Positions 21,859 through 58,457 of a DNA stretch of 64,000 nt are shown piece by piece. The number at the start of each line of letters is the position of its first letter. Position 1 is the stretch's first letter. The stretch covers positions 34,908,001 to 34,972,000 of the forward strand of contig NC_086097.1 of the NCBI RefSeq assembly GCF_963921235.1, read 5' to 3'. Below the pieces are notes generated by a model. That model did not search any database. It was not told the origin of the DNA and saw only the letters and a list, made by a program, of their open reading frames with translations. Source of the stretch: Mobula hypostoma (lineage: Eukaryota). The translations under genes and the position numbers were made by a program.

Positions 21859-22085
21859 AAACAACAGGAATACTGCAGATGCTGGAAATTCAAGCAACAC
21901 ACATCAAGGTTGCTGGTGAACGCAGCAGGCCAGGCAGCATCTCTAGGAAGAAGTACAGTCGACGTTTCAGGCCGAGACCCTTCGTCAGGACTGACAAAGG
22001 GTCTCGGCCTGAAACGTCGACTGTACCTCTATCTAGAGATGCTGCCTGGTCTGGTGCGTTCACCAGCAACTTTGATGTGTGTTGC
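21859..22085. mobile_element. Self-inverted Penelope-like terminal-repeat insertion (copy 1)
   Basis: ~97-bp inverted arms (21892-21988 and 21991-22087) plus a 33-bp one-sided tail; 13-bp TSD TTTATTTGGTTGC at 21846 and 22086. Confidence 0.9.
21956..21993 (-). ncRNA. Minimal type I hammerhead ribozyme motif, intact core
   Basis: Minus strand reads CAGTC-CTGACGA-AGG gtctcgg CCT-GAAA-CG-TC^GACTG: stem I CAGTC/GACTG, CUGANGA and GAAA boxes, GUC cleavage triplet. Confidence 0.8.
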
Positions 22086-22749
22086 TTTATTTGGTTGCGT
22101 CCATTTTCCCTTTTTGATGCGAGGTAGGGGAGGCCATTGATAATCAGTGAGCGCTGAATTGCACAGAAGGGAGGAGGGTTGGCTGATGAGGAGAGTGAAG
22201 TGTGTTTTCCAAGCATAGAAAGGACTCACCTAACTTGGGCTGTGACATCAGCTTCTCCCTCCTGAATTACCTCCCCCAACTTCCCCTTACGAAAATAGTA
22301 CGGTCAGATTTTGCTGAGCATCTTGAAGATGAAGAATAGCTTACTTAGCGGACATTTTTCATCATATGAACCAGTTGAACAAGTCTCTGCAAGGCCTTGG
22401 AGAAAAAGTTTTGACTTCAAGTGACAAGATTCTTGGATGTAAAAGGAAACTGGATCATGTTGCAAAAGGAAATCTTGAAATGTTTCCACTGCTGTTTGGG
22501 CTTGAGAGTGAGAAAGGATATCAGAAGGTCTTGAGACTTACTGAAAACCACCTGGAAAACTGCAGAAGACAATTGAACAATATTTTTCCAGTCTTTCAAC
22601 ACAAGTGAGGGACCCTTTCACTGAATCTTCTGCTCAGCCTGAGGACTTGACTTTGAGAGAGATGGAAGAACGTTGTGAGCTGCAGTCTGATCATGCAGTC
22701 AAGACGAGTTTTGGGTTTAAATTCAAAAGCCTTCTAACCTGAACTAAAG

Positions 22750-22963
22750 CAACACACATCAAAGTTGCTGGTGAATGCAGCAGGCCAGGCAGCATCTCTA
22801 GGAAGAGGTACAGTCGACGTTTCGGGACGAGAAGGGTCTCTTCTCGGCCCAAAACGTCGACTGTACCTCTTCCTAGAGATGCTGCCCGGCCTGCTGCGTT
22901 CACCAGCAACTTTGATGTGTGTTGCTTGAATTTCCAGCATCTGCAGAATTCCTCGTGTTTGCG
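22750..22963. mobile_element. Self-inverted Penelope-like terminal-repeat insertion (copy 2, opposite orientation)
   Basis: Inverted arms 22747-22833 and 22841-22927 plus a 36-bp tail; TSD TAACCTGAACTA(AAG) at 22735 and 22964. Confidence 0.9.
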
Positions 22964-23194
22964 TAACCTGAACTAAAGGTCTCTCTTAAACTGCCCCATT
23001 CAAATGATGGCCTTTTGTCAAATGCCTATTTAAGCAAAACACTGAGCAATGTTGTTTGAGTAGGCAACAGTGCCTTTTTATCAGAGAATACCTTTCTATC
23101 TGATACTGATAGTTTTATCTCAAACAATATCTTCTTTCATTGAATCGATTGCTAATCTCAACATTCAGATGTGACATTTGGTGGTTTGGTTTTC

Positions 23195-23545
23195 AAATCA
23201 GAATCAGGTTTAATATCACTGGCACATATTGTGAAATTCATTAACTTTACAGTAACAGTACAATGAAATACATGATAAATACGGGACAAAAACCCGAATT
23301 ACAGTAAGTATATATATGTAGTTAAGTTAAAATAAATTGTGCAAAAACACACAAAAAGGTTCATGTGTTCAGTGTCCCATTTAGAAATCAAATGATAGAG
23401 GAGAAGAAGCTGTTCCTGACTGGCTGAGTGTGTTGTTACAAGCTACTGTCTCTCCTTCCTGGCAGTAACGATATGGGAGCATGTCCTGGGTGGTGGGGGT
23501 CCTTCACGATGGACACCGCCTTTCTGAGGCACCACTCCTTGAAAA
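23195..23545 (-). mobile_element. Rex1/Babar-type LINE 3' end
   Basis: AATCAGAATCAG tail and AAGCTGTTCCTGA... 3' region shared with the Rex-type copy at 41.5 kb. Confidence 0.6.
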
Positions 23546-23744
23546 TGGCATATAAATTTTTTTAAAATGGTGAAATGTTGGAAGTGATGTAAGTGTTGAA
23601 TATATTAAAGTTCCAGTTGTCCTTTTTCACAGCAAATAAATACAATCAATTCAGCTGCTTTTAACATGCTCGACATGGAACCTCTGTACTCTGAGTAACT
23701 TCCCTGAGAAATATCCACAGGGAGCTCAAGAGTGTTGTACAAGT

Positions 23745-25078
23745 ATCATTAAAGAAGAAATAGCGAGGCATCTGGAAAGAAATGGATCCATCAGGCAGAC
23801 GCAGCAGGGATTCAGCAAAGGCAGGTCCTGTTTGACAAACTTACTGGTGTTCTTTGAGGATATAATGAGCACAGTGGATAGAGGGCAACAGATGGATGTC
23901 ATTTACTTGGATTTCCAGAAGGCATTTGATGAGGTGCTGCATAGAAGACTTAACAGGTATCCATAAGATAAGGAAGTATAGAGTTGGGGGTGATGTATTA
24001 GAATGGATAGAGGATTGCCTAACTAATAGAAAACACAGAGTTGGGAGACATGGGTGTTACTCTAGTTGGCAACCAGTGGAGAGCGGTGTGCCGCAGGGGT
24101 GGGTGCTGGGCCTGCAACTGTACATGATGTTCATTAACAATCTGGAAGAGGGGACAGAGTGCAATGTATCTAAGTTTGCTGATGATACTAAATTGAGTGG
24201 AAAAGCAAATTGTGCAGAAGATACGGAGAGTCTGCAGAGAGATATAGATCAATTAAATGAGTGGACAAGGGTCCGGCAAATGGAGTACAATGTTGATGAT
24301 GTGAGGTCATCCACTTTGGAAGCAAAAATGGAAGATCAGATTATTTAAATGCAAAAAATTGCAGCATACTTCTTTGCAGAGGGACTTGGGAGTGCTTGTG
24401 CGTGAATCACAAAAGGTTGGTTTGCAGATGCAGCAGGTTATCAAGTTGGGCTTCATTGCTAGAGGGATTGAATTTAAGAGTAGGGAGGTTATGCTGCAAC
24501 TGTACAGGGTACTGGTGAGGCCGCACCTAGAGTACTGTGTTCAGTTCTGGTCTCCTTACTTAAGGAAGGATATATTGGTTTTGAAGGCAGTGCAGAGGAG
24601 GTTCACCAGGTTGGTTCCAGAGATGAGGGGGTTAGACTATGAGGAGAGGTTGAATCGTCTGGTACTGTACTCGCTGGAATTCAGAAGAATGAGAGGAGAT
24701 CTTATAGAAACATAAAATGATGAAAGGGATAGATAAGATAGAGGCAGGAAAGTTGTTTTCACTGGTAGGTGAGACTAGAACTAGGGGACATAGCCTCAAG
24801 ATTTGGGGAGTAAATTCTGGATGGAGATGAGGAACTGCTTTTCCCAGACAGTGGTGAATGTGTGGAATTCTCTGCCCAATGAAGCGGTGGAAGCTACCTC
24901 AGCAGGTGTATTTAAGACAAGGTTGGATAGATTTTTGCACAGTAAGGGAATTAAGGATTATGAGAAAAAGGCAGGTAGGTGAAGATGAATCCATGGACAG
25001 ATCAGCCTTGATCTGCAGAGCAGGCTCAACGGACCGGATGGCCTACTCCTGCTCCGATTTCTTATGTTCTTATGTTCT
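23745..25078 (+). mobile_element. 5'-truncated CR1 LINE
   Basis: GVPQG, SKFADDTKL and [14 protein letters not shown] motifs; TTCTTATG-repeat tail. Confidence 0.9.
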
Positions 25079-25804
25079 AAGTATCAGTATGTTGAAGGAG
25101 CTATGGCAGGAAGAGGATGCCTCAGCTTGCTTCCCTTTGTAGGCAGAGGTATTAAGCACTTGGGTTGGGTCATAATGTTGCATCTGTACAGGAGATTGGT
25201 TAGACCACACTTGGAATAATATTTGCAGTTCTGGCCACTGCATTTGTGAAGGGATGTGGCAGTATTTGAAAGTTTGTCGAGAGAGTCACCAGATTGTTGT
25301 CTGGAATGGAGAGTTTTAGTTACATGGATAATTTGGGAATGTTCTCTGTGGAGTGCAAGAGGTTGATGGATAGTTTTAATAGAATTTTATAAAATTATGA
25401 AAATCATAGGATAGATAGATAGTCTTTTTACTGGATAGGGATGTCTAAAACTAGAGGGTATAGGTTTAAGGTGAGCAGGGAAATAATAAAGGGAGATCTG
25501 AGGACAAGCTTTGATAAAGCACTAGGGTAAAAGGAACAAGCTGCCGAAGGAAGCTGTAAAGGCAGGTACAATTACAATATTTAAAAGACATTTGAATCAG
25601 TTCATAGCGAGGAAAGGAGAAGAGGGATATGGGCTGGACAATAGTGGAGAGAGGCATCAGTATTGGCATAGGATGAGTAGTACCAAAGGGCATGGTAGAC
25701 TAGAACTATTATGACGTTTGTTATAAACAGTGCCTGAGGAAAGTCACCGGAAGCTCTAATGGGAGATTTACGATGGAGGAAAAATGAAGTAAGTTGTTTT
25801 TTTA

Positions 25805-26087
25805 ATTAAAGTCTGTCACGAGCCTTGTGGCCCATCAGGCCAGTGCTTATGCTGGTTTCCGTGGTGTGAAGCAACTGTAGGCTCCCCCCCCCCCCCCGGA
25901 TAGGACACCAGTCTATCGCGAGGTTAACCCCCAGCATTTTTGCTGGTACCCATTCTCAGCTGGGTAGACTGGAGCATTGTGTGGTTAAGTGCCTTGCTCA
26001 AGGACACACATGCTGCCTCGGCCAAGGCTTGAACCCATGACCTTCAGATCGCTAGTCCAATGCTCTAACCACTTGGCCACACGCCAC
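25805..26087 (-). mobile_element. tRNA-derived SINE with a conserved central domain (Meta/V-type)
   Basis: Minus strand: A-box TGGCCAAGTGG, B-box GGTTCAAGCC, then GTGTCCTTGAGCAAGGCACTT...AATGGGTACC...CCTCGCGATAGACTGG. Confidence 0.75.
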
Positions 26088-26224
26088 AAGATGTTGTTTA
26101 GCATATGTTTAAGGTTTTTTCTACTGGAGACAATACAGAGAAAGAGGTGGGGAAGGTGAAGGGTAAGTGAAAGAACTGGAGAGATTATATGACAATGGGA
26201 ATGAGGTGGGAAGTGAAAAAGGAT

Positions 26225-28617: not shown

Positions 28618-28658
28618 TTATTCTATTATTTTTATTTGCAAAGTTTGTCATCTGTTTG

Positions 28659-29304
28659 CAACACACATCAAAGTTGCTGGTGAACGCAGCAGGCCAGGCA
28701 GCATCTCTAGGAAGAGGTACAGTCGACGTTTCAGGCCGAGACCCTTTGTCAGGACTAACTGAAGGAAGAGTTAGTAAGAAATTTGAAAGTGGGAGGGGGA
28801 GATCCAAGATGATAGGAGAAGACAGGAGGGGGAGGGATGAAGCCAAGAGCTGGACAGGTGATTGGCAAAGGGGATATGAGAGGATCATGGGACAGGAGGC
28901 CCAGGGAGAAAGACGGGATGGGGGGGGGACCCAGAGGATGGGCAAGGGGTATAGTCAGAGGGACAGAGGGAGAAAAAGGAGAGAGAGAGAGAGAAAGAAT
29001 GTGTGTATAAAAATAAATAACGGATGGGGTACGAGGGGGAGGTGGGGCATTAGCGGAAGTTAGAGAAGTCAATGTTCATGCCATCAGGTTGGAGGCTACC
29101 CAGACGGAATATAAGGTGTTGTTCCTCCAACCTGAGTGTGGCTTCATCTTTACAGTAGAGGAGGCCGTGGATAGACAAGTCAGAATGAGAATGGGATGTG
29201 GAATTAAAATGTGTGGTTACTGGGAGATCCTGCTTTCTCTGGCGGACAGAGCGTAGGTGTTCAGCAAAGCGGTCTCCCAGTCTGCGTCGGGTCTCGCCAA
29301 TATA
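28659..29304 (-). mobile_element. 5'-truncated Penelope-like element: GIY-YIG endonuclease C-terminus plus terminal repeat
   Basis: YIGETRRRLGDRFAEHL...HFN...EEQHLIFRLGSLQPDGMN (29050-29304); 13-bp TSD TGTCATCT(G/T)TTTG at 28646 and 29305. Confidence 0.9.
28720..28757 (-). ncRNA. Hammerhead ribozyme motif with a G8>A core mutation (probably inactive)
   Basis: TAGTC-CTGACAA-AGGGTCTCGGCCT-GAAA-CGTC-GACTG. Confidence 0.65.
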
Positions 29305-29867
29305 TGTCATCTTTTTGGTTGCTTTGTTTAAGTACAGCTTCAATAAAATTATTTTCTAGTTTTTCCCGTAAATGCCCGCAAAAAAATAAACCTTAAGGTA
29401 GTATATAGTAATGTATATGTACTCTGATGATAAATTTGCTTTAAATTTGAACATGTAAAGTGGGAGAAAAGGTCAGTTGAAATGTTGTAAATGGAAGTAG
29501 TAGAATAATAGTCTGAAATGAAAAGCGAAAATGCTAGAAAACTCATCATTATTGAAATTATTGAACTCCAGTATTGAGTCCAAAAACCTGTCATAATCCC
29601 AGACAGAAGGTGAGATATTGTTTCTCAACCTACACCAAGCTTCATTAGAACAATGTGATCAGGGTGGAATTCGGGTGGACAATTTAAGTGGTAGGCAATT
29701 TGAAGATATAAATTAATTAATTTTTGCATACAGAAGTTTCTGCTGACATTCATTTATTCTGAAGTACTGAACCCAAAATGTAGGAGTTTTAGAGATTGAC
29801 TGATCTGAAAACTGTGACCCCAGCTGCAGAAAGAGTGACGACTTTGTAGAATAACTGGCCTCTGCCA

Positions 29868-30430
29868 TAGCCATCCTAAGCTCCCAGTTGCAAACCATTT
29901 AAACTTTTCTCCCTGTGCTCACATCGACTTGTCTGTCCATTGCCTCCTGCATTGGCATGGTGAGGACAAATACAAGCTAGAGGAACAGTAACTCATATTC
30001 TGCCAAAGTAGTCTACAGTCCAGTGGCGTGAATTCTGAATTCTCCAATTTCAGGTAACTTGCTCTAACTCTATTCCTTTCTCTTTCCTCCTGATCCATGT
30101 CGGTCATTTTGTATATCCCCTTCTTCCCAGCCCCAGCCCTCTTTGCTCTCCTTCAGCTGATCTGCGTATTACCCATACTAGCCAGTTGATCCCCTATTTT
30201 CTTCTCTCCCCCAACTGTTCCCCTTTTGTTATGCATTCCTCCCTTATCAGGTTTCACTCACAACCTTCCTTTCTTATCAGATTCCATAATCTATAACCTT
30301 GAGGAAAGGTCTCGGCCTAAAACGTTGACTGGTTGTTCATTTCTATAGATGCTGCCTGGTCTGCTGAGTTCCTCCAGTACTTTGTGTATGTGTTGCTTTG
30401 ATTTCCAGTGTGTGCAGACTTTCTCGTGTT
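29868..30430 (+). mobile_element. Older Penelope-like remnants (GIY-YIG C-terminus and decayed terminal repeat)
   Basis: Translates LPVANHLN..HIDLSVHCLL..KLEEQ*LIF..LQSSGVNSEFSNFR*, colinear with 29050-29304; decayed AGGTCTCGGCCTAAAACGTTGACTG at about 30307. Confidence 0.75.
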
Positions 30431-34750: not shown

Positions 34751-34784
34751 CGACTGAAGTGAAATCAAATCATTAAAGAGGAGA

Positions 34785-42681: not shown

Positions 42682-42682
<1 letters not shown>

Positions 42683-44078: not shown

Positions 44079-44781
44079 CCACCAGGTAAACCATCAGGGC
44101 CTGATGCCTTGCGAGAGTTTACCTTTCTGAAAGATGTTCTGACATCAGCCTCCGAGACAGAGATCACAAGGTGACTATATAGAGTGGGTGGTGGAGTAAA
44201 GGGAGTCAGAATTGGAGGGCTTTCGCTCAACGGGGTTTCAGCGATAACGGGTCGAGGCAAGGTAAGTTACTTGTGAAGAACAGAAACAGGAAGTATGTCT
44301 GTGAGACCAGTGTTCTGTACTGGGTGTCAGATATGGTATGCCGGGAGACTCCCAGCCTCATGGACGCCCACATCTGTGCCAGGTGTGTCAAGCTGCAGCT
44401 CCTTAGGGACTGCATTAGGGAACTGGAGATGCAGCTCCATGACCTTTGTCTGGTCAGGGAAAGTGAGGAGGTGATAGAGAGGAGTTATAGGCAGGTAGTC
44501 ACTCCGGGGCCTCAGGAGACAGATAAGTGGGTAACAGTCAGGAGAGGGAAGGGCAGGAGTCAGATACTAGAAGGTACCCCAATGGCTGTCCCCCTTAACA
44601 ATAAGTACACGTGTTTGAGTACTGTTGCAGGGGGAGTGGCCTCTGGCACAGTGTCTGGCCCTGTGGCTCAGAAGGGTAGGGAAAGGAAGAGGATGGCAGC
44701 AGTCATAGGGGACTCTATAGTTAGGGGGTCAGACAGGTGATTCTGTGGACGCAAGAAAGAAACACAGATGGTAGTTTGCCT

Positions 44782-45245
44782 GCAACACACATCAAAGTTG
44801 CTGGTGAACGCAGCAGGCCAGGCAGCATCTCTAGGAAGAGGTACAGTCGACGTTTCAGGCCGAGACCCTTCGTCAGGACTAACTGAAAGAAAAGTGAGTA
44901 AGAGATTTGAAAGTTGGAGGAAAAGGGGGAGATCCAAAATGATAGGAGAAGACAGGAGGGGGGGGGGGGGATGGAGCCAAGAGCTGGACAGGTGATTGGC
45001 AAAAGGGATATGAGAGGATCATGGGACAGGAGGTCCGGGAAGAAAGACAAGGGGGGGGGAACCCAGAGGATGGGCAAGGGGTATAGTCAGAGGGACAGAG
45101 GGAGAAAAAGGAGAGTGAGAGAAAGAATGTGTGTATAAAAATAAATAACAGATGGGGTACGAGGGGGAGGTGGGGCATTAGCGGAAGTTAGAGAAGTCAA
45201 TGTTCATGCCATCAGGTTGGAGGCTACCCAGACGGAATATAAAGT
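44782..45245 (-). mobile_element. 5'-truncated Penelope-like element inserted into CR1 ORF1
   Basis: Near identical to 28659-29117; HFIFRLGSLQPDGMNIDFSNFR*; 8-bp TSD GTTTGCCT at 44774 and 45246. Confidence 0.9.
44844..44881 (-). ncRNA. Minimal type I hammerhead ribozyme motif, intact core
   Basis: TAGTC-CTGACGA-AGG gtctcgg CCT-GAAA-CG-TC^GACTG. Confidence 0.8.
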
Positions 45246-48067
45246 GTTTGCCTCCCAGGTGCCAGGGTCCGGAATGTTTCTGATCGCATCCATGATATCT
45301 TGAAGTGGGAAGGTGAACAGCCAGAGGCCATGGTACATAATTGGTACCAATTGGTACCAACGACATAGGTAGGAAAAGGGAGGAGGTCCTGAAAACAGAC
45401 TACAGGGAGTTGGGAAAGAAGCTGAGAAGCAGGACCTCCAAGGTAATAATCTCGGGATTGCTGCCTGTGCCACATGACAGTGAGTATAGGAATAGAATGA
45501 GGTGGAGGATAAATGCGTGGCTGAGGGATTAGAGCGAGGGGCAGGGATTCAGATTTCTGGATCATTGGGAACTCTTTTGGGGCAGGCGTGACCTGTACAA
45601 AAAGGATGAGTTGCACTTGAATCTGAGGGGGACCAATATCCTGGCAGGGAGGTTTGCTAAGGCTGTTGGGGAAAGTTTAAGCTAGAATTGCTGGGGGGTA
45701 GGAACTGAACTGAAGAGACTTACAAATAACAGCTTACAAATACAGAAAGCCTGTAGGCAGTGTGAGAGGGAGGATAGGCAGGTGATAGAGAAGGGATGCA
45801 CTCAGACTGATGGTTTGAGATGTGTCTATTTTAATGCAAGGAGTATCATGAACAGAGCGGATGGGCTTAGAGCGTGGATCAGTACTTGGAGCTATGATGT
45901 TGTGGCCATTACAGAGACTTGGATGGCTCAGGGGCAGGAATAGCTACTTAGAGTGCCAGGCTTTAGATGTCTCAGAAAGGACAGGGAGGGAGGCAAAAGA
46001 GGTGGGGGCGTGGCACTGTTGATCAGAGATAGTGTCACGGCTGCAGAAAAGGAAGAAGTCATGGAGGGATTACTGAGTCTCAGTGGGTGGAAGTTAGGAA
46101 CAGGAAGGTGTCAATAACTCGACAGGGTGTTTTTTATGGACCATCCAATAGTAACAGAGACATCGAGGAGCAGAAAAGGAGACAGATTCTGGAAAGGTGT
46201 AACAATAACAGGGTTGTCATGATGGGGGATTTTAATTTTCCCAATATTGATTGGCATTTCCCTGGAGCACGGTGTTTAGATGGGATAGAGTTTGATGGGT
46301 GTCTTCAGAACAGTTTCTTGACATAATATGTAGATAAGCCTACAAGAGGAGAGGCTGTACTTGATCTGGTATTGGGAAATGAACCTGGTCAGGTGTCAGA
46401 TCTCTCAGTGGGAGAGCATTTTGGAGATAGTGATCACAATTCTATCTCCTTTACCATAGCATTAGAAAGGGATAGGAACAGACAAGTCAGGAAAGCGTTA
46501 AATTGGAGTAAGGGGAAATATGAAGCTATCAGGCAGGAACTTGGAAGCATAAATTGGGACTAGATGCTCTCAGGGAAACACATGGCAGAAATGTGGCAAA
46601 AGTTCAGGGGATATTTGCGTGGCATTCTGCATAGGTACATTCCAATGAGACAGGGAAAGGGTGGTAGGGTACAGGAACCATAGTGTTTAAAGGCAGTTGA
46701 AAATCTAGTCAAGAAGAAAAGAAAAACTTACGAAAGGTTAAAAAAACTAGGTAACGATAAAGATCTAGAAAATTATAAGTCTAGCAGGAAGGAGCTTAAG
46801 AATGAAATTATGAAAGCCAGAAGGGGCCATGAGAAGGCCTTGGTGAGCAGGATTAAGGAAAACACCAAGGCATACTATATGTTTGTGAAGCATAAGAGGA
46901 TAAGATGTGAGAGAATAGGACCAATCAAGTGTGACAGTGGAAAAGTGTGTATGGAACTGGAGGAGGTAGCAGAGGTACTTAATGAATACTTTTCTTATAC
47001 ACATTCAGAAAGAGAGTGTGCTGGAGCTTTTGGAAAACATCAAGTTGGATAAGTCACCGGGGCTGGACAAGATATACCAAGATATATCACTGGCTACTGT
47101 GGGAAGCGAGGAAGGAGAACGCTGAGCCTCTGGCAATGATCTTTGCATCATCAATGGGGGCAGGAGAGGTTCCAGAGGATTGGAGGGTTGCAGATGTTGT
47201 TCTCTTGTTCAAGAAAGGGAGTAGAGATAGCCCAGGAAATTATAGACCAGTGAGTCTTACCTCAGTAGTTGGTAAGTTGATGGAGAAGATCCTGAGAGGC
47301 AGGATTTATGAACATTTGGAGAGGCATAACATGATTAGGAATAGTCAGCCTGGCTTTGTCAAAGGCAGGTCGTGCCATAGGACACTCATAGCTACTGCGC
47401 TGTGTATTGGCCTTCATCAACCATGGGATTGAATTCAAGAGCTGAGAGGTAATGTTACAGCTATATAGGACCCTGGTCAGACCCCACTTGGAGTACTCTG
47501 CTCAGTTCTGGTTATCTCACTGCAGGAAGGATGTGGAAACTATAGAAAGGTTGCAGAGGAGATTTACAAGGATGTTGCCTGGATTGGGGAGCATGCCTTA
47601 TGAGAATAGGTTGAGTGAACTTGGCCTTTTCTCCTTGGAGCGATTTAGGATGAGGGGTGACCTGATAGGGGTGCATAAGATGATGAGAGGCATTGATCAT
47701 GTGGATGATCAGAGGCTTTTTTCCGGGGCTGAAATGGCTAACATGAGAAGGTACAGGTTTAGGGTGCTTGGAAGTAGGTATAGAGGAGATGTCAGGGGTA
47801 AGTTTTTTACGCAGAGAGTGGTGAGTGCGTGGAATGGGCTGCTGGTGATGGTGGTGGAGGCGGATACGATAGGGTCTTTTAAGAGACCCCTGGATTGGTA
47901 CATGGAGCTTAGAAAAATAGAGGGCTATGGGTAACCCTAGGTAATTTCTAAAGTAAGTACATGTTCAGCACAGTGCTGTGAGCCGAAGGCCCTGTATTGT
48001 GCTATAGGTTTTCTATGTTCTAGATGCTGCAGGAATTCACACAGGTGTAGTTTTAAGTGTGCATAAA

Positions 48068-50676: not shown

Positions 50677-51196
50677 CTAAGGACATTCTGTTATGCAGAG
50701 ATGTTTAAGGGCATAAGAACGAGAATGAGGCAGGCAGCTAAATACAGATAAGGTGCAGAACATCAACACTTGTTCCCCAAGAGTCACTTAGTTTGCTGTT
50801 TTAATTGCCCATCCCACTCTGGTCTGAAATCCCCTGTACCATTACAAAAGGCTCAAGGCAAACTTGAGGAACAATTCCTCACCTTCCATGTTACAGCCAG
50901 CAAGACTTGATATTTAATTTTTGTTTAGCCATTTCTGCCTGTATTCCTCTGTTCTGACTTGCTGGGTATGTTCTGACTATACTATGTTACCTGAAATCAA
51001 AATCATGATCAGAGTCAGGTTTGTTATCACTGATATATGTGGTGAAATGTGTCGTTTTGTGAAGCAGTACAGTGCAGTACACAAAAATTACTCTGTTACA
51101 AATAAATAAATAGTGAGGGTATGATGGAATTGAACTCCAAGCTGAAATTGATTAACTGTAGCCTAACATATGTTTTGCAGTTTTCTTCATAAAGCT

Positions 51197-52788: not shown

Positions 52789-53719
52789 GAACAAAGAAAT
52801 ACAATAGAATTAATGAAAATATACATAAGCAAAGACTGGCAGACAACTGATGAGCAGAGGAAGGCAAACTGCAAATAAAAATATAGACAAATAAATGACA
52901 CTCTAAACATGAGTTGTATAGACATTGCAAGTGAGTCCATAGGTGGTAGAATCAGTTCAGTATGGTATGTGAAGTCATTCACGCTAGTTCAGGAGGGTAA
53001 TAATTATTTGTGAACCTGATAGTGTGGGATCTCCTTCCTGATGGCAGCAGTGAGAAGAGAGCATGAGATTAGCTTGGATGTTCATCTTGGTCAGCATGGA
53101 CCAGTTGTCTGAAGGGCCTGTTTCTATGCTGAATGATCCTAGGACATATCTGCACAGCAAAGACCAAACTTTGGCTACCTGTATCGTAATACAATTGTTT
53201 AATGTTGTATGACAGAACTCCACCCATTGTGCTAGTGCATAATAAGTCTAGGCATATTTCATATGTTGGAAATGAGAATTGTAGAGGGATGAAAATTCTT
53301 AGAGACATCTTTGACATTCACCTTCAAATGTTTTAAATTCTTCAATACTTGTTCAGTCCCTGACAACCACCTTCCAACTCCCTAAAAACTGCACCGTGAA
53401 TAATACCACCTTTTTGATATCAAAAAAAGACTTAATGGAAAGACCCATGACATTAATTGGATTTAATGAATACAAGTAATAACATGCTTTCAAAAGGAAC
53501 ATTACTGCCTGGCTTTATTACCAAAGAGACATTAATCTACTAATTAACCCTTGCATCATTTAAGTTATGTCCTGGCAAGCGTAAAAGAAGTCCTGGTGTA
53601 ACATGGCAGACGTATGACAATACTGTCAAGAGAATGATTAAAATGGGACAATAATGTCCCAGCTAATATATTGGGGAGGTATAGTATCGAGTTTCCTTTT
53701 GGACAGGATAACTTGACTA

Positions 53720-56555
53720 TTAAGCAGAGCAATGAGAACTCTTGAGAGAATAAGGGGTATATCTGCAAAGCCAGTGCTCTGTTTTGAGTGTCAGATGTGG
53801 TATTTCTGGGAGGCTACTAGCCTCCCCAGTGACCACATCTGCACCAGGTACCTTGAGATGCAGCTCCTTAGAGACCGAGTTCCGGAACTGGAGCTGCAGC
53901 TCGATGACTTTCTGCTTAATAGGGAAAGTGAAGTGATGATAGACAGGAGCTGACAAGGGAAATTAGGGATAGTATCAATTCCAAAGAAGAAACATACAAA
54001 TTAGCCAGAAAAAGCGGCACACCTGAGGACTGGGAGAAATTCAGAGTCCAGCAGAGGAGGACAAAGGGCTTAATTAGGAAAGGGAAAAAAGATTATGAGA
54101 GAAAACTGGCAGGGAACATAAAAACTGGCTGTAAAAGCTTTTATAGATATGTGAAAAGAAAAAGATTGGTTAAGACAAATGTAGGTCCCTTGCAGTCAGA
54201 AACAGGTGAATTGATCATGGGGAACAAGGACATGGCAGACCAATTGAATAACTACTTTGGTTCTGTCTTCACTAAGGAGGACATAAATAATCTTCTGGAA
54301 ATAGTAGGGGACCGAGGGTCTAGTGAGATGGAGGAACCAAGGGAAATACATGTTAGTAGGGAAGTAGTGTTAGGTAAATTGAGGGGATTAAAAGCAGATA
54401 AATCCCCAGGGCCGGATGTTCTGCATCCCAGAGTGCTTAAGGAAGTAGCCCAAGAAATAGTGGATGCATTAGTGATAATTTTTCAAAACTCTTTAGATTC
54501 TGGACTAGTTCCTGAGGATTGGAGGGTGGCTAATGTAACCCCACTTTTTAAAAAAGGAGGGAGAGAGAAACCGGGGAATTATAGACCAGTTAGCCTAACA
54601 TCGGTGGTGGGGAAAATGCTAGAGTCAGTTATCAAAGATGTGATAACAGCACATTTGGAAAGCGGTGAAATCATCGGACAAAGTCAGCATGGATTTGTGA
54701 AAGGAAAATCATGTCTGATGAATCTCATAGAATTTTTTGAGGATGTAACTAGTAGAGTGGATAGGGGAGAACCAGTGGATGTGGTATATTTGGGTTTTCA
54801 AAAGGCTTTTGACAAGGTCCCACACAGGAGATTAGTGTGCAAACTTAAAGCACATGGTATTGGGGGTATGGTATTGATGAGGATAGAGAATTGGTTGGCA
54901 GACAGGAAGCAAAGAGTGGGAATAAATGGGACCTTTTCAGAATGGCAGGCAGTGACTAGTGAGATACCACAAAGCTCAGTGCTGGGACCCCAGTTGTTTA
55001 CAATATATATTAATGACTTAGACGAGGGAATTAAATGCAGCATCTCCAAGCTTGTGGATGACACGAAGCTAGGTGACAGTGTTAGCTGTGAGGAGGATGC
55101 TAAGAGGATGCAGGGTGACTTGGATAGGTTAAGTGAGTAGGCAAATTCATGGCAGATGCAAATTAGTGTGGATAAATGTGAGGTTATCCACTTTGGTGGC
55201 AAGAACAGGAAAACAGATTATTATCTGAATGGTGGCTGATTAGGAAAAGGGGAGGTGCAACGAGACCTGGGTGTCATTGTACACCAGTCATTGAAAGTGA
55301 GCATGCAGGTGCAGCAGGCGGTGAAAAAGGCGAATGGTATGCTGGCATTCATAGCAAGAGGATTTGAGTACAGGAGCAGGGAGGTACTACTGCAGTTGTA
55401 CAAGGTCTTGGTGAGACCACACCTGGAGTATTGTGTGCAGTTTTGGTCCCCTAATCTGAGGAAAGACATCCTTGCCATAGAGGGAGTACAAAGAAGGTTC
55501 ACCAGATTGATTCCTGGGATGGCAGGACTTTCATATGAAGAAAGACTGGATCAACTAGGCTTATACTCTCTGGAATTTAGAAGACTGGGGGGGGGGGGGT
55601 GGATCTTATTGAAACGTGTAAAATTCTAAAGGGATTGGACAGGCTAGATGCAGGAAGATTGTTCCCGATGTTGGGGAAGTCCAGAACGAGGGGTCACAGT
55701 TTAAGGATAAAGGGGAAGCCTTTTAGGACCGAGATGAGGAAAAACTTCTTCACACTCAGAGTGGTGAATCTGTGGAATTCTCTGCCACAGGAAACAGTTG
55801 AGGCCAGTTCATTGGCTATATTTAAGAGGGAGTTAGATATGGCCCTTGTGGCTAAATGGATCGGGGGTATGGAGAGAAGGCAGGTTCAGGATTCTGAGTT
55901 GGATGATCAGCTATTAACATACTGAATGACGGTGCAGGCTTGAAGGGCTGAATGGCCTACTCCTGCACTTATTTTCTATGTTTCTATGTTTCTAGGAGCT
56001 ACAGGGACGTGGTCACACAAAGACTACAGGAGGCAGATAAATGGGTGACTGTCAGGAGAGGGAAGGGAGAACGTCAGATAGTGGAGAGCACCCCTGTGGC
56101 CATCCCCCTCAACAGTAAGTACTCCATTTTGAGTACTAGTGGGGGGTAGGGGATGAACTTCCTGGGGGAAGCAACAGCGGCCATGTCTCTGGCACTGAGT
56201 TTGGCCCTGTGGCTCAGAAGTGTAGGGAACTGAGGAGGAGGGCAGCAGTGGTAGGGGACTCTATAGTCAGGGGGACAGATAGGTGATTCTGTGGATGCAA
56301 AAAGCAAACACGGATGGTAGTTTGCCTCCCAGATGCCAGGGTCCACGATATTTCTGAATGCATCCACAATATCCTGAAAAGGGAAGGTGAGCAGCCAGAA
56401 CTCATGGTACATATTGGTACTAACAACGTAAGTAGAAAAAAGTAGAAGGTCCTGAAGAAAGAATACAAGGAGTTAGGAAGGAAACCGAGAAGCAGGAGCT
56501 CCAGGATAGTAATCTCAGGATTGCTGCTTGCGCCATGCGACAGTGAGGTTAGGAT
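53720..56555 (+). mobile_element. CR1 ORF1 region split by a younger CR1
   Basis: CFECQMW..LQLDD at 53732-53950 resumes as RSYRDVVT at 55994; esterase VVGDSIV motif. Confidence 0.85.
53952..55993 (+). mobile_element. Young 5'-truncated CR1 with a 329-aa open RT stretch (non-functional)
   Basis: 7-bp TSD AGGAGCT at 53945 and 55994; ORF 54151-55140 has FADD changed to LVDD and a premature stop; (TTTCTATG)n tail. Confidence 0.92.
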
Positions 56556-56557
56556 TA

Positions 56558-57300
56558 AGACCAATTTATACTTGTGCGTCAAATCGACGCTGTAGGTATG
56601 GTGTAGCCATGTACCCTACACCATACCCTACGCCGTAGCCTGACGCGCACCTCCCCAAAAATGTTACTACGCGTCGCGGCGACACAGACCGCAACAACTG
56701 TGATTGGTCTGCTTGGTAGCCTTGCATTTCCTCCTACGCTGCAATAGCTTCCCATTGGGCGACTGAAGGGCAGGGAAGGAATTCTGGCTGCAATGCTTTC
56801 CATAAAGCTTTCCAGACCTCCAAAATTATGGAGGACCCTGTGCTTGACGCCAGTTTGTAGCTAGCTGCTACAGCCTGTTGACTTCCACCTGAAGCTAAAA
56901 CTCGAATGGTGATTGCCAGTCTCAGAGTATACTGTGCGTACACTGATGCGAAATAAATGGTTGGAGATGATGAACTAAATCGTCAAACCTATCTGCCGAC
57001 ATCCGAAAATATTTGAAATGCATTTCCTCGTCCGTGTCTCTCAGTGGCCGGACAAGCACAGAAAATTCACCCTCCTTCAGTTTCAGTCGCCATTGTTTGA
57101 AGTTTGAGTTTCTTCGTGTTGAGTTTCAACATGAAGAAACTCAACACAGTGGCATAGAAACCCCACCGCCAACTAGCGTTTTGGTGGTGAATTACAGAGC
57201 GACGCAGACACACCAATGCACAAGTATAAATGCTCACAACAGCATAGCCCACTTGTGTTGGCTACGGCGTAAACTAATACGCATAAGTATAAATCAGCCT
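56558..57300 (-). mobile_element. PIF/Harbinger transposon, internally deleted
   Basis: TIRs AGACCAATTTATACTTGTGCGT and ACGCATAAGTATAAATCAGCCT in TTAA contexts; transposase remnant [17 protein letters not shown] / [25 protein letters not shown]. Confidence 0.85.
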
Positions 57301-57896
57301 TAAGAGATTTTACAGATATGTTAAGAGCAAAAGGATTGCAAGGGACAAAATTGGTCCTCTGAAAGATCAGAGTGGTAATCAATGTGAGGAACCAAAAGAG
57401 ATGGCGGAGAACTTAAGTGCATTTTTTGCATCTGTATTTACTCAGGAAACCAATGTGGAGTCCATAGATGTGATGCAAATAGTATCAACTGCATGGACCC
57501 TATACAGATTACAGAGGAGGAGGCGTTTGCTGTCTTCAGGCAAATTAGGGTGGATAAATCCCCAGGGCCTGACAAGGTGTTCCTTTGGATCTTGCGGGAG
57601 GCAAGTGTAGAAATTTTCGAGGCTCTAGAAGAGATATTGAAATCATCCTTAATGGGGTGAGGTACCAGGAAAACTAATGTTGTTCCAGTGTTTAAGAAAG
57701 TCTCTGAATATAAATCAGCAAATTATAGGCCGGTGAGCCTGGAAAGGTTATTGGAAGGTATTCTGAGGAATATGAGTATTTGGATAGACATGGACTGATT
57801 AAGGCTAGTCAGCATGGCTTCGTGCATCGTAGGTTGTGTCTAACCAATCTGATAGAGTTTTTCGAGGAAGTTACCAAGAAAGTTGATGAAGGTAAG

Positions 57897-58124
57897 TGAA
57901 ACACCTTCAATAACTCCAAAAGACCAAGGTTAGGTAAAATACCGAAAGGCTTTTATTCGCTGTACAATACAACCTCCATGGTGAGTGTCTGCCCCCGGAC
58001 TGAGGGGGAGGGGCAAGGCGAAACACCTTTATACAGGATCTGTGGGAGGAACCACAGGGGCAGTCAGCAGAGGGGCGTGTTCAGACAGTTAACCCAGTTA
58101 CAACATTTATATGGTTTACCACCA
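57897..58124 (-). mobile_element. Short solo LTR (228 bp), Gypsy-like
   Basis: TG...CA termini; 4-bp TSD TAAG at 57893 and 58125; TATAAA and AATAAA on the minus strand. Confidence 0.8.
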
Positions 58125-58333
58125 TAAGACATGTTGTTTACATAGTCTTTTGCAAGACATTTGACAAGGTCCTGCTTGGGAGTTGGTCAGGAAGGTTCAG
58201 TTGCTCGGCATTCAAGATGAGATAGTAAATTGGATTAGACATTGACTTTGTGGGAGTAACCAGAGAGTGGTAGTAGATGGTTACCTCTCTGCCTGGAGGC
58301 TTGTGACTAATGGAGTACCACAGGGATCAGTGC

Positions 58334-58457
58334 AGCACTCACAACATGCTGGAGGAACTTAGCAGGTCGGGCAGCATCCGTGGAAATGATCAGTCAACGT
58401 TTCGGGCCGGAATCCTTCATCAGGACTGAAGTGGGAAGGGGCAGAGGCCCTAGCCCT
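58334..58457 (-). mobile_element. Penelope-like terminal fragment of a diverged subfamily
   Basis: Homologous to 44782-44890; splits CR1 RT at GTGC (58330 and 58458). Confidence 0.75.
58391..58428 (-). ncRNA. Minimal type I hammerhead ribozyme motif, variant with intact core
   Basis: CAGTC-CTGATGA-aGGattccggCCc-GAAA-CG-TT^GACTG (N7=U, GUU triplet). Confidence 0.72.

What the first reader, a model, noticed from the sequence alone, without database searches (positions are those of the whole stretch)
21956..58428. Family of minimal hammerhead ribozyme motifs in Penelope-like termini
Seen: a 38-nt motif on the minus strand at 21956-21993, 28720-28757, 44844-44881 and 58391-58428. It reads stem I (C/T)AGTC..GACTG, CTGANGA, a short stem II, GAAA, then CG-TH. 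The 58.4-kb copy has diverged flanks and loop II, and its core changes fall only where hammerheads tolerate them (N7 C>U, triplet GUC>GUU). The 28.7-kb copy has a CpG-type G8>A change. At 28.7 and 44.8 kb the motif lies downstream of a GIY-YIG endonuclease remnant. Established: Penelope-like elements carry minimal type I hammerheads with almost no stem III, which are thought to cleave as dimers; here the self-complementary ACGT in GAAACGT(C/T) could supply that stem. Inference: this is a self-cleaving-RNA retroelement family that appears recently active in this genome. The class is known, but this family may be uncharacterised.
Basis: partly seen in the sequence, partly recalled or inferred. 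Interest (0 to 1): 0.8.

Follow-up and report, generated by a model that had tools for sequence, protein, structure and literature searches.

The report
Minimal hammerheads in Penelope-like retroelement ends
The repeated 38-base motif is the minimal hammerhead-ribozyme motif that sits near the 3' end of a very abundant, recently active Penelope-like jumping gene; this kind of element and its ribozyme motif are already described, so the finding is right but it is a new member of a known kind.

Summary
All four minus-strand copies stand at the stated coordinates, and a fifth, degenerate inverted copy lies at 21987-22023(+). Shuffles give none.

[quoted passage not shown] It lies 62 nt before the usual 3' end of insertions. 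In a tandem copy (L021) it flanks the ORF on both sides at a 3,513-bp period.

Its anatomy matches the published minimal hammerhead of metazoan Penelope-like elements (Cervera & De la Pena 2014):
- an extra base after A9;
- a 4-bp helix II;
- no helix III;
- palindromic C15.2-G16.2.

The 3.48-Gb genome holds 74,894 exact-core copies, and 125,671 within 3 mismatches. It also holds 5' regions that are 99-100% identical and open frames of 1,037-1,043 aa, so the family was active recently.

Self-cleavage is not shown:
- No Rfam hammerhead model matches.
- There is no two-sided covariation.
- The monomer's best fold pairs the core.
- None of the simple copies among 100 sampled starts at the cleavage site.

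New here: a third of sampled copies end, or invert, inside the hammerhead. Head-to-head insertions almost always carry one long and one short tail.

The parts
21956..21993 (-). Minimal hammerhead motif, copy a. The core is intact (CUGACGA ... GAAA ... CGUC). The predicted cleavage site lies between 21961 and 21960.
21859..22085 (.). A 227-bp head-to-head (tails-out) insertion of two 3'-terminal fragments. The sense arm on the minus strand is 21894-21993, followed by a 35-nt tail extension at 21859-21893. The inverted arm on the plus strand is 21979-22085, ends short, and carries a degenerate hammerhead (G8>A) at 21987-22023. The junction lies at the 5' strand of helix I. The 13-bp target-site duplication GCAACCAAATAAA stands at 21846-21858 and 22086-22098.
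22749..22963 (.). Second head-to-head insertion. The arms are 22750-22832(-) and 22842-22924(+), and they meet inside helix II/loop II, so no intact core remains. The 38-nt tail extension (22926-22963) is on one arm only. The 14-bp target-site duplication TTTAGTTCAGGTTA stands at 22735-22748 and 22964-22977.
28659..29305 (-). 5'-truncated copy b (unit positions 2867-3512, 92% identical to the L021 unit). It comprises the C-terminal part of the GIY-YIG endonuclease, the stop codon, a ~300-nt C/T-rich 3' UTR, the hammerhead at 28720-28757 (G8>A, a CpG-type change), and a 62-nt terminal segment with a short end.
29814..30391 (+). Old, decayed copy of the same terminal region (60% identical to unit 2875-3510). 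The hammerhead core is lost (…CTTGAGGAAAGGTCTCGGCCTAAAACGTTGACTG…).
44783..45255 (-). 5'-truncated copy c (unit 3044-3512, 90.5% identical) with an intact hammerhead at 44844-44881. It is inserted into another repeat, whose uninterrupted relative lies at 56187-56554. The target-site duplication is about AGGCAAAC.
58332..58455 (-). Short copy d (~124 nt) of a diverged subfamily (75% identical to unit 3403-3496), with the hammerhead at 58391-58428. It has N7 U, GUU, loop II TTCC, 11.1 C, and G10.3>A, which breaks one helix II pair. It is inserted into another repeat whose empty sites lie near 5259 and 16450.

Best explanation
The motif is the minimal type-I hammerhead (min-HHR) that canonical, endonuclease-bearing Penelope-like elements (PLEs) carry in their pseudo-LTRs. 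Here it belongs to a very abundant family with a Neptune/Nematis-type CX4CXXC linker.

Element layout (shown):
- a ~3.5-kb unit with a 138-nt leader;
- one ORF of about 1,016 aa, containing a reverse transcriptase, then CX4CXXC, then GIY-YIG;
- a ~300-nt C/T-rich 3' UTR;
- the 38-nt hammerhead;
- 62 nt to the 'short' end, or about 100 nt to the 'long' end, which carries the 38-40-nt tail.

In partial tandems the hammerhead therefore also stands 138 nt in front of the next ATG.

Hammerhead anatomy (shown):
- helix I of 5 bp (YAGUC/GACUG);
- the box CUGANGA;
- one extra A;
- helix II of 4 bp (GGGU/GCCY) with a tetraloop;
- the box GAAA;
- then C15.2-G16.2 with no loop;
- then U16.1 and H17.

Proposed mechanism (inferred from the published model, not shown here): a single copy cannot form helix III. 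Two copies can pair their ACGU stretches into a 4-bp intermolecular helix III and exchange their helix I strands. The two copies could be the two pseudo-LTR copies of one long transcript, or two RNAs held in a dimeric ribonucleoprotein. Each RNA would then be cut after GUC/GUU. In that model the element's own protein assists the reaction. Most genomic copies are dead, 5'-truncated products of target-primed reverse transcription that merely carry the motif.
For: Place and repetition:
- The motif stands at all four sites, and chance gives 0.
- The own genome holds 74,894 exact matches to the core plus helix I pattern, and the reversed-pattern control gives 0. Within 3 mismatches there are 125,671 matches, again with control 0.

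The element:
- L021 has a hammerhead on both sides of a 1,043-aa open frame, at a period of 3,513 bp.
- Pfam hits RVT_1 (E 3.3e-5) and GIY-YIG (E 1.3e-3) in the right order.
- The protein Atlas scores 0.98 to animal clusters carrying HTH_animal, DUF8422, RVT_1 and GIY-YIG.
- The protein reads PCKRNKCYTC...GVIYCVRCSRCGLLYIGET...R...EH.
- L012 is a second partial tandem.

PLE hallmarks (named in passages of PMC8557442):
- Strong 5' truncation.
- Inverted 5'-truncated partners: 34 of 100 sampled copies.
- A tail at one end only: 25 of 27 head-to-head insertions, and both palindromes in the window.

Min-HHR features of PMC4209133 (parts 1-2 of 4 read):
- the boxes;
- the extra base after A9;
- the palindromic 15.2-16.2 pair;
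- a 4-5-bp helix I;
- a position in the pseudo-LTR on the sense strand. All are met.

Conservation:
- In 35 tail-selected copies the only sites in the 38 nt with a minor allele of 10% or more are 11.1 (U/C, which keeps the pair) and H17. In the flanks 9 of 48 positions reach that level.
- The diverged TTCC-loop subfamily keeps every core base and changes only N7 and H17.
- At CpG sites the tolerated product outnumbers its mirror product. N7 C>U has 7,097 copies against 3,980 for G8>A. C17>U has 5,537 against 4,714 for G1.1>A.

Recent activity.
Against: - No Rfam family matches. The whole window gave 0 matches at gathering scores. No hammerhead model matched at E up to 10 around three of the sites.
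- There is no compensatory (two-sided) change in any helix, only G.U to G-C at 10.1-11.1.
- The major subfamily has G.U at 10.1-11.1 (27 of 35), where the published consensus has G-C.
- The excess conservation of the motif over its flanks is not significant in the sample (2 of 38 against 9 of 48, Fisher p = 0.10).
- The monomer's minimum-energy fold pairs G5-G8 with C15.2-C17, which is an inactive hairpin. That same hairpin would also explain both CpG asymmetries.
- The folding energies are not unusual: z = -1.24 for the 38 nt and -0.39 for the 148-nt terminus.
- Among 100 tail-selected copies, none of the simple copies begins at the cleavage site. Only 2 arms of palindromes end within 4 nt of it. 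So the record of reverse-transcribed RNAs shows no cleaved templates.
- In the one PLE studied in vitro (Anolis PAc, passages of PMC11167929), hammerhead mutants inserted normally, and no RNA-seq reads ended at the site.
- The Pfam scores lie below the curated cut-offs.
Confidence: 0.85

Rival explanations
1. The motif descends from a hammerhead, but in this family it is kept as a structured RNA element that the element's protein binds, or that pairs two template RNAs. It does not work as a ribozyme, and no cleavage takes place in vivo.
For: - The best monomer fold is a hairpin that sequesters the core.
- The CpG asymmetries fit this hairpin as well as they fit a hammerhead: N7 C>U and C17>U keep wobble pairs, while G8>A and G1.1>A break pairs.
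- None of the simple copies among 100 starts at G1.1.
- 35 of 100 copies end or invert inside the motif, as if it were a physical obstacle or a joining site.
- The literature points the same way. Min-HHRs show low activity in vitro (PMC4209133). In Anolis PAc the hammerhead is not needed for insertion and needs protein to cut (PMC11167929). PLE clades without hammerheads proliferate well (PMC8557442).
Against: The eight positions that are unpaired in the hairpin fold (C3, U4, A9, the extra A, G12, A13, A14, A15.1) are the hammerhead's invariant bases. They do not vary between the subfamilies seen here, while loop II, 11.1 and the bases just outside helix I do vary. A plain hairpin gives no reason for that. 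The same boxes are kept across animal PLE clades in the literature (PMC4209133).
Confidence: 0.3
2. The short copies (about 60-130 nt and about 470-670 nt) are a separate non-autonomous element, a SINE or a retrozyme-like repeat with its own hammerhead, that borrows the PLE machinery. They are not truncated PLE ends.
For: Copy lengths are not evenly spread:
- 20 of 100 copies start in the 12 nt at the 5' edge of helix I;
- 13 of 100 start in unit 2840-3059;
- only 14 of 100 start in the 300 nt between these two regions.

A preprint (10.64898/2026.07.22.740005; abstract and Results part 1 read) derives animal non-LTR retrozymes from PLE pseudo-LTRs.
Against: - Every copy examined is collinear with the 3' end of the autonomous unit up to its break point. 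No copy carries a head of its own, such as a tRNA- or 5S-like part.
- 5' ends occur at many positions.
- No tandem arrays of short units were seen. The descriptor scan of 157.5 kb found 28 motifs, dispersed, in inverted pairs or 3.5 kb apart.
- Retrozymes are defined by head-to-tail repeats of a few hundred nt.
Confidence: 0.07
3. The resemblance to a hammerhead is a chance property of an abundant repeat.
For: Only the lack of any Rfam hit and the lack of two-sided covariation.
Against: All 13 invariant core positions, the extra base after A9, the palindromic 15.2-16.2 pair and the position in the pseudo-LTR of a PLE match a published descriptor. That descriptor was derived from other genomes (PMC4209133). 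The same genome gives 0 hits to the reversed pattern.
Confidence: 0.02

Closest known systems
Minimal hammerheads (min-HHR) of metazoan Penelope-like elements (Cervera & De la Pena 2014, PMC4209133; parts 1-2 of 4 read)
   Same: Both are type I motifs with the boxes CUGANGA and GAAA and the UH site. Both have one unpaired base between A9 and 10.1, a short helix I (4-5 bp), no helix III, and palindromic 15.2-16.2 read as a dimerisation site. Both lie in the pseudo-LTRs on the sense strand. Most copies are single and dispersed, or are pairs on opposite strands ~100-700 bp apart.
   Different: - Helix II has 4 bp here, against 7-8 bp in Schistosoma and 6 bp in D. virilis.
- 10.1-11.1 is G.U in the major subfamily instead of G-C.
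- Sequence variety is low: there is essentially one motif, with 58,592 copies identical in all specified positions. The paper stresses extreme variability, except in D. virilis.
- Copy number is 74,894 to 125,671, against about 4,000 (coelacanth) and 9,000 (Xenopus) in that paper.
Poseidon PAc of Anolis carolinensis (Frangieh et al. 2024, PMC11167929; passages read)
   Same: Both are EN+ PLEs with pseudo-LTRs and a hammerhead in front of the ORF in tandem copies. Both have two adjacent 3' ends that define a 30-40-nt 'tail'. In both, a stem-loop lies around the initiation sites; here this is the centroid hairpin across the short end.
   Different: In PAc the hammerhead overlaps the start codon, and the cut site lies 26 nt downstream of the ATG. 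Here the cut site would lie 138 nt upstream of the ATG. Here the linker is CX4CXXC, which the literature assigns to Neptune/Nematis and not to Penelope/Poseidon. No biochemistry exists for this element.
Penelope of Drosophila virilis and its atypical hammerhead (PMC4209133)
   Same: Both have a pseudo-LTR hammerhead with very high copy-to-copy identity in a genome under recent invasion. In D. virilis the 3' end of the 5'-UTR intron abuts the 5' end of helix I. Here a polypyrimidine tract plus CAG, which looks like a splice acceptor, abuts helix I.
   Different: The D. virilis motif has a 2-bp helix I, a bulge in helix II and a 2-nt palindromic insertion in helix III. No intron is shown here.
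Animal non-LTR retrozymes (Cervera & De la Pena 2020, PMC7229834, search listing only; Li et al. 2026 preprint, abstract and Results part 1 read)
   Same: Both carry type I hammerheads with weak helix III that are thought to act as dimers. The retrozymes are thought to derive from PLE pseudo-LTRs.
   Different: Retrozymes are short, non-coding, head-to-tail tandem repeats that give circular RNAs. Here the motif is part of an autonomous 3.5-kb element and its truncated copies, and no short tandem arrays were seen.
Canonical type I hammerheads (Rfam Hammerhead_1 and relatives)
   Same: The catalytic boxes and the helix I/II topology are the same.
   Different: There is no helix III and no loop-loop tertiary contacts. 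No Rfam model scores, even at E up to 10.

Membership tests
Hammerhead ribozyme, minimal PLE type (min-HHR) | Conserved boxes C3-U4-G5-A6-N7-G8-A9 and G12-A13-A14, A15.1/U16.1, and H17 not G | tested here: met
   Met in copies a, c and d. Copy b has G8>A. In the tail-selected sample, 31 to 35 of 35 copies keep each box position.
Hammerhead ribozyme, minimal PLE type (min-HHR) | One unpaired base between A9 and 10.1 | tested here: met
   An extra A is present in 34 of 35 sampled copies. With it, helix II pairs as GGGU/GCCY.
Hammerhead ribozyme, minimal PLE type (min-HHR) | G10.1-C11.1 pair | tested here: inconclusive
   G10.1 is invariant. 11.1 is U in 27 and C in 8 of 35 copies, so the major subfamily has a G.U wobble.
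Hammerhead ribozyme, minimal PLE type (min-HHR) | No helix III; 15.2-16.2 palindromic, so that two copies can build helix III | tested here: met
   GAAA-CG-UC with no loop, and ACGU is self-complementary. In the cofold of two copies the helix I strands and the GACG/CGUC stretches pair between the two RNAs, at -30.3 kcal/mol. This shows that two copies can pair. It does not show the active fold.
Hammerhead ribozyme, minimal PLE type (min-HHR) | Helices supported by covariation | tested here: not met
   Only one-sided changes were seen (11.1 U/C). No compensatory pair appears in the lists or in the sample. The family is too young and uniform to give covariation. A search for a sister family with GC at 15.2-16.2 found 29 places against 17 for the control.
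Hammerhead ribozyme, minimal PLE type (min-HHR) | Self-cleavage 3' of H17 | not testable with these tools
   No listed run is on record as RNA, and the runs are held as contigs only. Indirectly, none of the simple copies among 100 begins at G1.1.
Rfam hammerhead families (Hammerhead_1, _3, _II, HH9, HH10) | Score at or above the family's gathering threshold | tested here: not met
   The whole window gave 0 matches at gathering scores. No hammerhead model matched at E up to 10 on 21800-22150, 44820-44900 or 58370-58450. The family names are recalled, not taken from a call.
Penelope-like element, canonical EN+ (C-terminal GIY-YIG) | Single ORF with a reverse transcriptase followed by a GIY-YIG endonuclease | tested here: met
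   In the L021 ORF, RVT_1 covers residues 534-697 and GIY-YIG covers 946-1020. Both lie below Pfam's cut-offs (24.1 against 29.6 bits, and 19.4 against 22.6 bits). The motifs GVIY...YIGET...R...EH are present. The Atlas scores 0.98 to clusters with RVT_1 and GIY-YIG.
Penelope-like element, canonical EN+ (C-terminal GIY-YIG) | Pseudo-LTRs formed by a partial upstream tandem copy | tested here: met
   In L021 an upstream partial copy reaches into the GIY-YIG coding part. In L012 the upstream copy runs from unit 2858 to 3512, followed directly by unit 1-1104. Only 2 copies with an intact 5' region were held.
Penelope-like element, canonical EN+ (C-terminal GIY-YIG) | Inverted 5'-truncated partner copies, and a 30-40-bp tail at one end only | tested here: met
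   34 of 100 sampled copies are arms of head-to-head insertions. 25 of 27 such insertions have one long and one short end, 2 have two short ends, and none has two long ends. Both palindromes in the window follow the rule.
Penelope-like element, canonical EN+ (C-terminal GIY-YIG) | Reverse transcriptase branches with PLE/telomerase RTs | not tested
   No reference PLE or TERT sequences were on hand. phmmer against PDB chains gave 0 hits at E up to 0.01.
Neptune/Nematis clades of PLEs | [quoted passage not shown] | tested here: met
   PCKRNKCYTC (CX4CXXC) lies 32 residues before GVIY. The criterion comes from passages of PMC8557442. Clade assignment still needs a tree.
Non-LTR retrozyme | Short non-coding units in head-to-tail tandem, each with a hammerhead | tested here: not met
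   The 28 motifs in 157.5 kb are dispersed, in inverted pairs, or 3.5 kb apart around an ORF.

The most novel reading that the evidence does not exclude
The hammerhead segment may act mainly as the place where insertion intermediates are joined, rather than (or as well as) acting as an RNA-cutting device.

The observations behind this reading:
- 35 of 100 sampled copies have their 5' end or their inversion point inside the motif.
- 20 of 100 fall in the 12 nt at the 5' edge of helix I (p = 8e-7 against neighbouring sequence).
- 25 of 27 head-to-head insertions carry exactly one long and one short tail.

This would follow if both strands of the cut target prime reverse transcription on two RNAs. 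The priming sites would be the long site for one RNA and the short site for the other. The two identical antisense cDNAs could then anneal only where the sequence is self-complementary, and the hammerhead's helix I, GACG/CGUC and GTCGAC stretches are such places. Alternatively, a hammerhead-mediated RNA dimer could hold the two templates together and stop both polymerases there.

Under this reading, the palindromic 'dimer hammerhead' of PLEs would shape the peculiar inverted architecture of their insertions.
Probability: 0.2. Interest if true: 0.6.

Novelty: new member of a known kind. Interest (0 to 1): 0.35.

Why it matters
The class is textbook for specialists, so the finding changes no concept. 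It does offer a very good natural data set for an open question: what PLE hammerheads are for.

The family is young, nearly uniform and huge, with at least 125,671 motif copies in 3.48 Gb, about one per 28 kb. Natural alleles exist in thousands of copies, including G8>A (3,980 copies), N7 U, GUU, and G.U or G-C at 10.1-11.1. Autonomous copies with open frames exist as well.

The genomic record of 5' ends argues that reverse-transcribed RNAs were not cut at the hammerhead. It also shows that the motif is a hot spot for truncation and inversion. Both points can be tested at genome scale and at the bench.

For genome annotation, the motif alone flags a large share of the interspersed repeats of this genome.

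Tried and rejected
- Rfam. The whole window at gathering scores gave nothing. At E up to 10, 21800-22150 matched only generic microRNA-hairpin models on the 196-nt palindrome, and 44820-44900 and 58370-58450 gave chance-level hits.
- RNA evidence. No RNA holder is listed for the 901-nt pseudo-LTR junction of L021. All 22 listed runs are Logan contigs of guessed or unknown kind.
- Laying four of those runs. This gave contigs only, so no molecule starts or ends and no verdict on expression or cleavage. Loose ends at L021 6843 and 6881-6895 agree with the long and short 3' ends. Some contigs join unit ~3055-3113 directly to ~3415; I did not resolve these variants.
- A second hammerhead lineage. 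The pattern with GC instead of CG at 15.2-16.2 found 29 places against 17 for the reversed control, so there is none.
- A general descriptor (boxes, helix I of at least 4 bp, helix II of at least 3 bp, palindromic helix III filler). It found only this family in 157.5 kb: 28 hits, against 0 in shuffles.
- The CpG-symmetry test. I meant it to show selection on the ribozyme. It does show an excess of the tolerated products, but the inactive hairpin fold predicts the same excess, so it does not separate the two readings.
- Conservation of the motif against its flanks. The result is 2 of 38 against 9 of 48 polymorphic sites, p = 0.10, which is not significant. Only 35 of the 100 sampled copies entered this count. 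The other 65 were shorter than unit 3380-3465, gapped, or under 85% identical.
- The 5' ends of full-length copies. I wanted to see whether they start at G1.1. The search found 2,407 candidates and scored 40, but no further genome letters could be fetched. Only L012, L021 and L022 could be examined. Two are partial tandems reaching far upstream of the hammerhead, and one is truncated at unit 192.
- phmmer against PDB gave 0 hits.
- Earlier notes of this scan hold nothing on this genome or sequence, and the word search returned unrelated PLE findings.
- Splicing. The acceptor-like CAG in front of helix I suggested an intron, but the joints seen in contigs do not have GT..AG ends, and no copy shows a consistent upstream exon. 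I dropped the idea.

Full report
OBSERVATION

On the minus strand, 21956-21993 and 44844-44881 carry YAGUC-CUGACGA-A-GGGU-CUCG-GCCU-GAAA-CG-UC-GACUG. At 28720-28757 the same motif has CUGACAA (G8>A). At 58391-58428 the motif has N7 U, loop II UUCC, 11.1 C and GUU. It also has A at 10.3, which breaks a helix II pair.

A degenerate 37-nt pattern with up to 3 mismatches finds 5 places in the window and none in 100 shuffles. The fifth place is a degenerate inverted copy at 21987-22023(+).

WHAT THE MOTIF BELONGS TO

A self-comparison of the window shows that copies a, b and c share the motif plus 62 nt downstream, ending ...CAACTTTGATGTGTGTTGC. Copies b and c also share ~370 nt upstream.

Copy c (44783-45255) is a clean insertion into another repeat. 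That repeat's uninterrupted relative lies at 56187-56554, and the target duplication is about AGGCAAAC.

Copy b runs on into an open frame, 29050-29355(-), that reads YIGETRRRLGDRFAEHL...LIFRLGSLQPDGMNIDFSNFR*. This is a GIY-YIG endonuclease C-terminus (Pfam E 5.7e-3, below the cut-off).

In the window's own assembly (3.48 Gb, 200 contigs) that protein piece has 168,060 first-look candidates. Of the 150 scored, five (all without an internal stop) lie in open frames of 934-1,043 aa.

One such place (L021) shows the whole architecture on one strand:
- an upstream partial copy ending with the GIY-YIG part and its stop codon;
- ~300 nt of C/T-rich UTR;
- the hammerhead;
- 62 nt to the point where most insertions end;
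- a further 38-40 nt (TTGAATTTCCAGCATCTGCAGAATTCCT...);
- an ATG 138 nt after the would-be cleavage site;
- a frame that stays open for 1,043 codons;
- again the UTR, the hammerhead and the end, 3,513 bp after the first.

The ORF gives RVT_1 (residues 534-697, E 3.3e-5) and GIY-YIG (946-1020, E 1.3e-3). Both lie below Pfam's curated cut-offs. The protein Atlas scores 0.98 to animal clusters that carry HTH_animal, DUF8422, RVT_1 and GIY-YIG. The C-terminal 212 residues show PCKRNKCYTC (CX4CXXC), then GVIYCVRCSRCGLLYIGET...R...EH.

A reverse transcriptase with a C-terminal GIY-YIG nuclease in one ORF, plus partial tandems that make pseudo-LTRs, defines canonical EN+ Penelope-like elements. The CX2-5CXXC linker is the mark of the Neptune and Nematis clades according to passages of PMC8557442. 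I could not build a tree, so the clade is tentative.

FURTHER HALLMARKS

The 21.9-kb copy is one arm of a 227-bp head-to-head insertion (21859-22085). It is flanked by a 13-bp duplication. The inverted arm ends short, and the sense arm carries the 35-nt extension.

A second head-to-head insertion lies at 22749-22963. It has a 14-bp duplication and the 38-nt extension on one arm only, and the two arms meet inside helix II.

To see whether this is general, I took the first 100 places of contig C1 that match a 33-nt string of the terminal segment exactly. That string lies outside the hammerhead and has 57,460 places genome-wide. I aligned each place to the L021 unit. The results:
- 40 copies have the extension and 60 do not.
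- 34 are arms of head-to-head, tails-out insertions. These 34 arms make up 27 insertions.
- 25 of the 27 have one long and one short end, 2 have two short ends, and none has two long ends.

PMC8557442 describes exactly these traits for PLEs: strong 5' truncation, an inverted truncated copy at the 5' side, and a 30-40-bp tail often at one end only. PMC11167929 traces the tail to two adjacent internal start sites of reverse transcription (passages). Membership in the PLEs is therefore well supported.

THE HAMMERHEAD ITSELF

In standard numbering the motif has all invariant bases. Its parts are:
- helix I of 5 bp;
- one extra A after A9;
- a 4-bp helix II (G.U or G-C, G-C, G-C, U.G) with a tetraloop;
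- C15.2-G16.2 with no loop, so that ACGU is a 4-nt palindrome.

This is the minimal hammerhead that Cervera and De la Pena defined and found in the pseudo-LTRs of all PLEs they examined. Their list of unexpected shared features includes the base between 9 and 10.1, G10.1-C11.1 and palindromic 15.2-16.2 (PMC4209133). The differences here are a shorter helix II, a G.U pair at 10.1-11.1 in the major subfamily (27 of 35 copies), and very low variety.

Rfam's hammerhead models do not see the motif, even at E up to 10. That is expected for a motif without helix III, but it means no independent model supports it.

NUMBERS

The core plus helix I pattern has 74,894 exact places in the genome, and the reversed control has 0. 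Of these, 58,592 have the full consensus at the three CpG sites. Within 3 mismatches of the 34-nt consensus there are 125,671 places, with control 0. That is about one per 28 kb.

The 2014 paper reports about 4,000 for the coelacanth and 9,000 for Xenopus.

The 363-nt 5' region of the unit has 2,407 candidates. All 40 scored are 99-100% identical. The family was therefore active very recently. The window's own copies are older or belong to other subfamilies: 90.5-92.9% identity to the unit for a, b and c, 75% for d, and 60% for the 30-kb copy.

IS THE MOTIF UNDER SELECTION AS A RIBOZYME?

Dead copies decay neutrally, so only differences between propagated lineages are informative. Three lines of evidence were tried.

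(i) Polymorphic sites. In the 35 tail-selected copies that cover unit 3380-3465 without gaps, a minor allele of 10% or more occurs at 2 of 38 motif positions. These are 11.1 U/C, which keeps the pair, and H17. The same holds at 9 of 48 flank positions. The direction is right, but Fisher's p is 0.10.

(ii) The TTCC-loop subfamily. It is enriched among GUU copies (about a quarter of the 100 listed, none of the 100 listed). It differs from the main one in loop II, 11.1, N7 and H17 only, and these are all positions a hammerhead tolerates.

(iii) CpG decay. Decay gives TpG and CpA at equal rates, yet N7 C>U (7,097) outnumbers G8>A (3,980), and C17>U (5,537) outnumbers G1.1>A (4,714).

However, the monomer's minimum-energy fold is a hairpin in which G5-G8 pair with C15.2-C17. 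In that fold the favoured products keep wobble pairs and the disfavoured ones break pairs. So (iii) does not tell a ribozyme from a hairpin.

What does speak for the hammerhead is this. The eight bases left unpaired in the hairpin are the hammerhead's invariant ones, and they do not vary between lineages, while loop II and the bases just outside helix I do.

There is no two-sided covariation, because the family is too uniform. A search for a sister lineage with GC at 15.2-16.2 found none.

DOES IT CUT?

This is not shown. No RNA run is on record, and only contigs could be laid.

The genome gives an indirect test. Reverse transcription starts in the terminal segment downstream of the cut site. 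An RNA cut at the hammerhead would therefore yield 67-nt or ~105-nt copies that begin exactly at GACUG. Among the 100 sampled copies, none of the simple copies begins there. Two arms of palindromes end within 4 nt of the site.

The two copies with an intact 5' region that I hold (L012, L021) are preceded by upstream partial copies that run far beyond the hammerhead.

So the templates that were copied into DNA were mostly uncut. This agrees with the Anolis work, where hammerhead mutants inserted normally, cleavage needed the protein, and no RNA-seq reads ended at the site. It leaves room for cleavage at another stage.

AN UNEXPECTED PATTERN

The 5' ends and inversion points are not spread evenly:
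- 35 of 100 lie between unit 3408 and 3451, where the motif is 3414-3451.
- 20 of 100 lie in the 12 nt at the 5' edge of helix I. By inspection of target duplications, many lie exactly at (G)UCCUGA.
- 14 of 100 lie in the 300 nt of UTR upstream.

Against the neighbouring 94 nt, the 12-nt peak has p = 8e-7. The reference unit has a private A at 3412, which can clip alignments at 3413, but that shifts ends by only a few bases within the same bin.

A second, broader cluster lies at unit 2849-3048. Window copies b, c and the old copy all fall in it.

The palindromes often have asymmetric arms, such as 3410 with 3448 or 3417 with 3456. These are roughly what fold-back of the cDNA at the hammerhead hairpin would give. 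Others keep two complete motifs and need two templates.

I did not find this hot spot described in what I read. The 2014 paper only notes pairs of motifs on opposite strands 100-700 bp apart.

My inference is that two identical antisense cDNAs, or one cDNA folding back, can anneal only at self-complementary sequence, and the hammerhead is the first such sequence from the 3' end. A bound protein or an RNA dimer that stops the polymerase is an alternative. The fold itself is not unusually stable (z = -1.24), which argues against a simple thermodynamic roadblock.

VERDICT

The thing is a min-HHR-bearing, probably Neptune-type, Penelope-like element family of very high copy number and recent activity. 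It is a new member of a known kind.

The ribozyme function remains as open here as it is in the literature. The genomic record leans slightly against routine cleavage of the RNAs that get inserted.

The hot spot of truncation and inversion at the hammerhead, and the quantified one-long-one-short rule, are the parts worth a specialist's second look.

Supplementary tables of the papers cited, which list species and accessions of known PLE hammerheads, were not consulted. They might already contain this family.

Noticed in passing
L021 and the 100 sampled loci (unit 2849-3048); window 29305, 45255, 29814: There is a second cluster of 5' truncation points inside the GIY-YIG coding part. 13 of 100 sampled copies start at unit 2840-3059. 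Window copies b (2867), c (3044) and the old copy (2875) fall there, and so does the pseudo-LTR of L012 (2858). The cause is unknown. It could be a transcription start in the pseudo-LTR or a second stop for the reverse transcriptase.
   Followed up: partly
window 28758-28790, 44882-44915; L021 6983-7010 (minus strand): Directly in front of helix I stands ...CTTACTCACTCTTCCTTCAG|TTAGTCC. This is a polypyrimidine tract plus CAG, which looks like a splice acceptor with a branch-point-like CTCAC. In D. virilis Penelope the intron's 3' end abuts helix I (PMC4209133). No intron could be shown here.
   Followed up: partly
L021 6860-6915 (minus strand), equivalent to window 21870-21925: The centroid fold of the terminal 148 nt is a hairpin (GCUGC.GUUCA..CCAGCAAC / GUUGCUUGAAU...UCCAGC) that spans the 'short' 3' end. 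It recalls the stem-loop at the reverse-transcription start sites of Anolis PAc. The overall folding energy is not unusual (z = -0.39).
   Followed up: no
window 44513-44781 with 45256-45491; 56027-56554; 18417-19147: Copy c sits inside another interspersed repeat family, which has at least three copies in the window (75-88% identical). I did not identify it.
   Followed up: no
window 58456-58480 and 58298-58331; 5012-5436; 16219-16646: Copy d is inserted into yet another repeat. The relatives at 5.2 kb and 16.4 kb lack the insertion. The probable target duplication is about GCACAG.
   Followed up: partly
L026 and L068 (contig C1, about 170 kb and 2.96 Mb): Two sampled 59-nt copies have identical upstream flanks, so they are one insertion copied by a segmental duplication. 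The 100 sampled copies are therefore not all independent events.
   Followed up: no
L021 6500-7400 in runs X1, X2, X5, X19: Contigs of public runs from at least three coded organisms (A, B, I) hold 45-73% of the sampled words of the pseudo-LTR junction. Runs of five more organisms hold 11-18%. The family or close relatives therefore occur in several related organisms. Some contigs join the end of the ORF (unit ~3055-3113) straight to unit ~3415, skipping the 300-nt UTR.
   Followed up: partly
genome G000, lists: Pairs of motifs on opposite strands within 100 nt are common: 5 pairs among the first 100 exact motif places. They always stand in the order minus then plus, that is, with tails pointing outwards.
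   Followed up: yes
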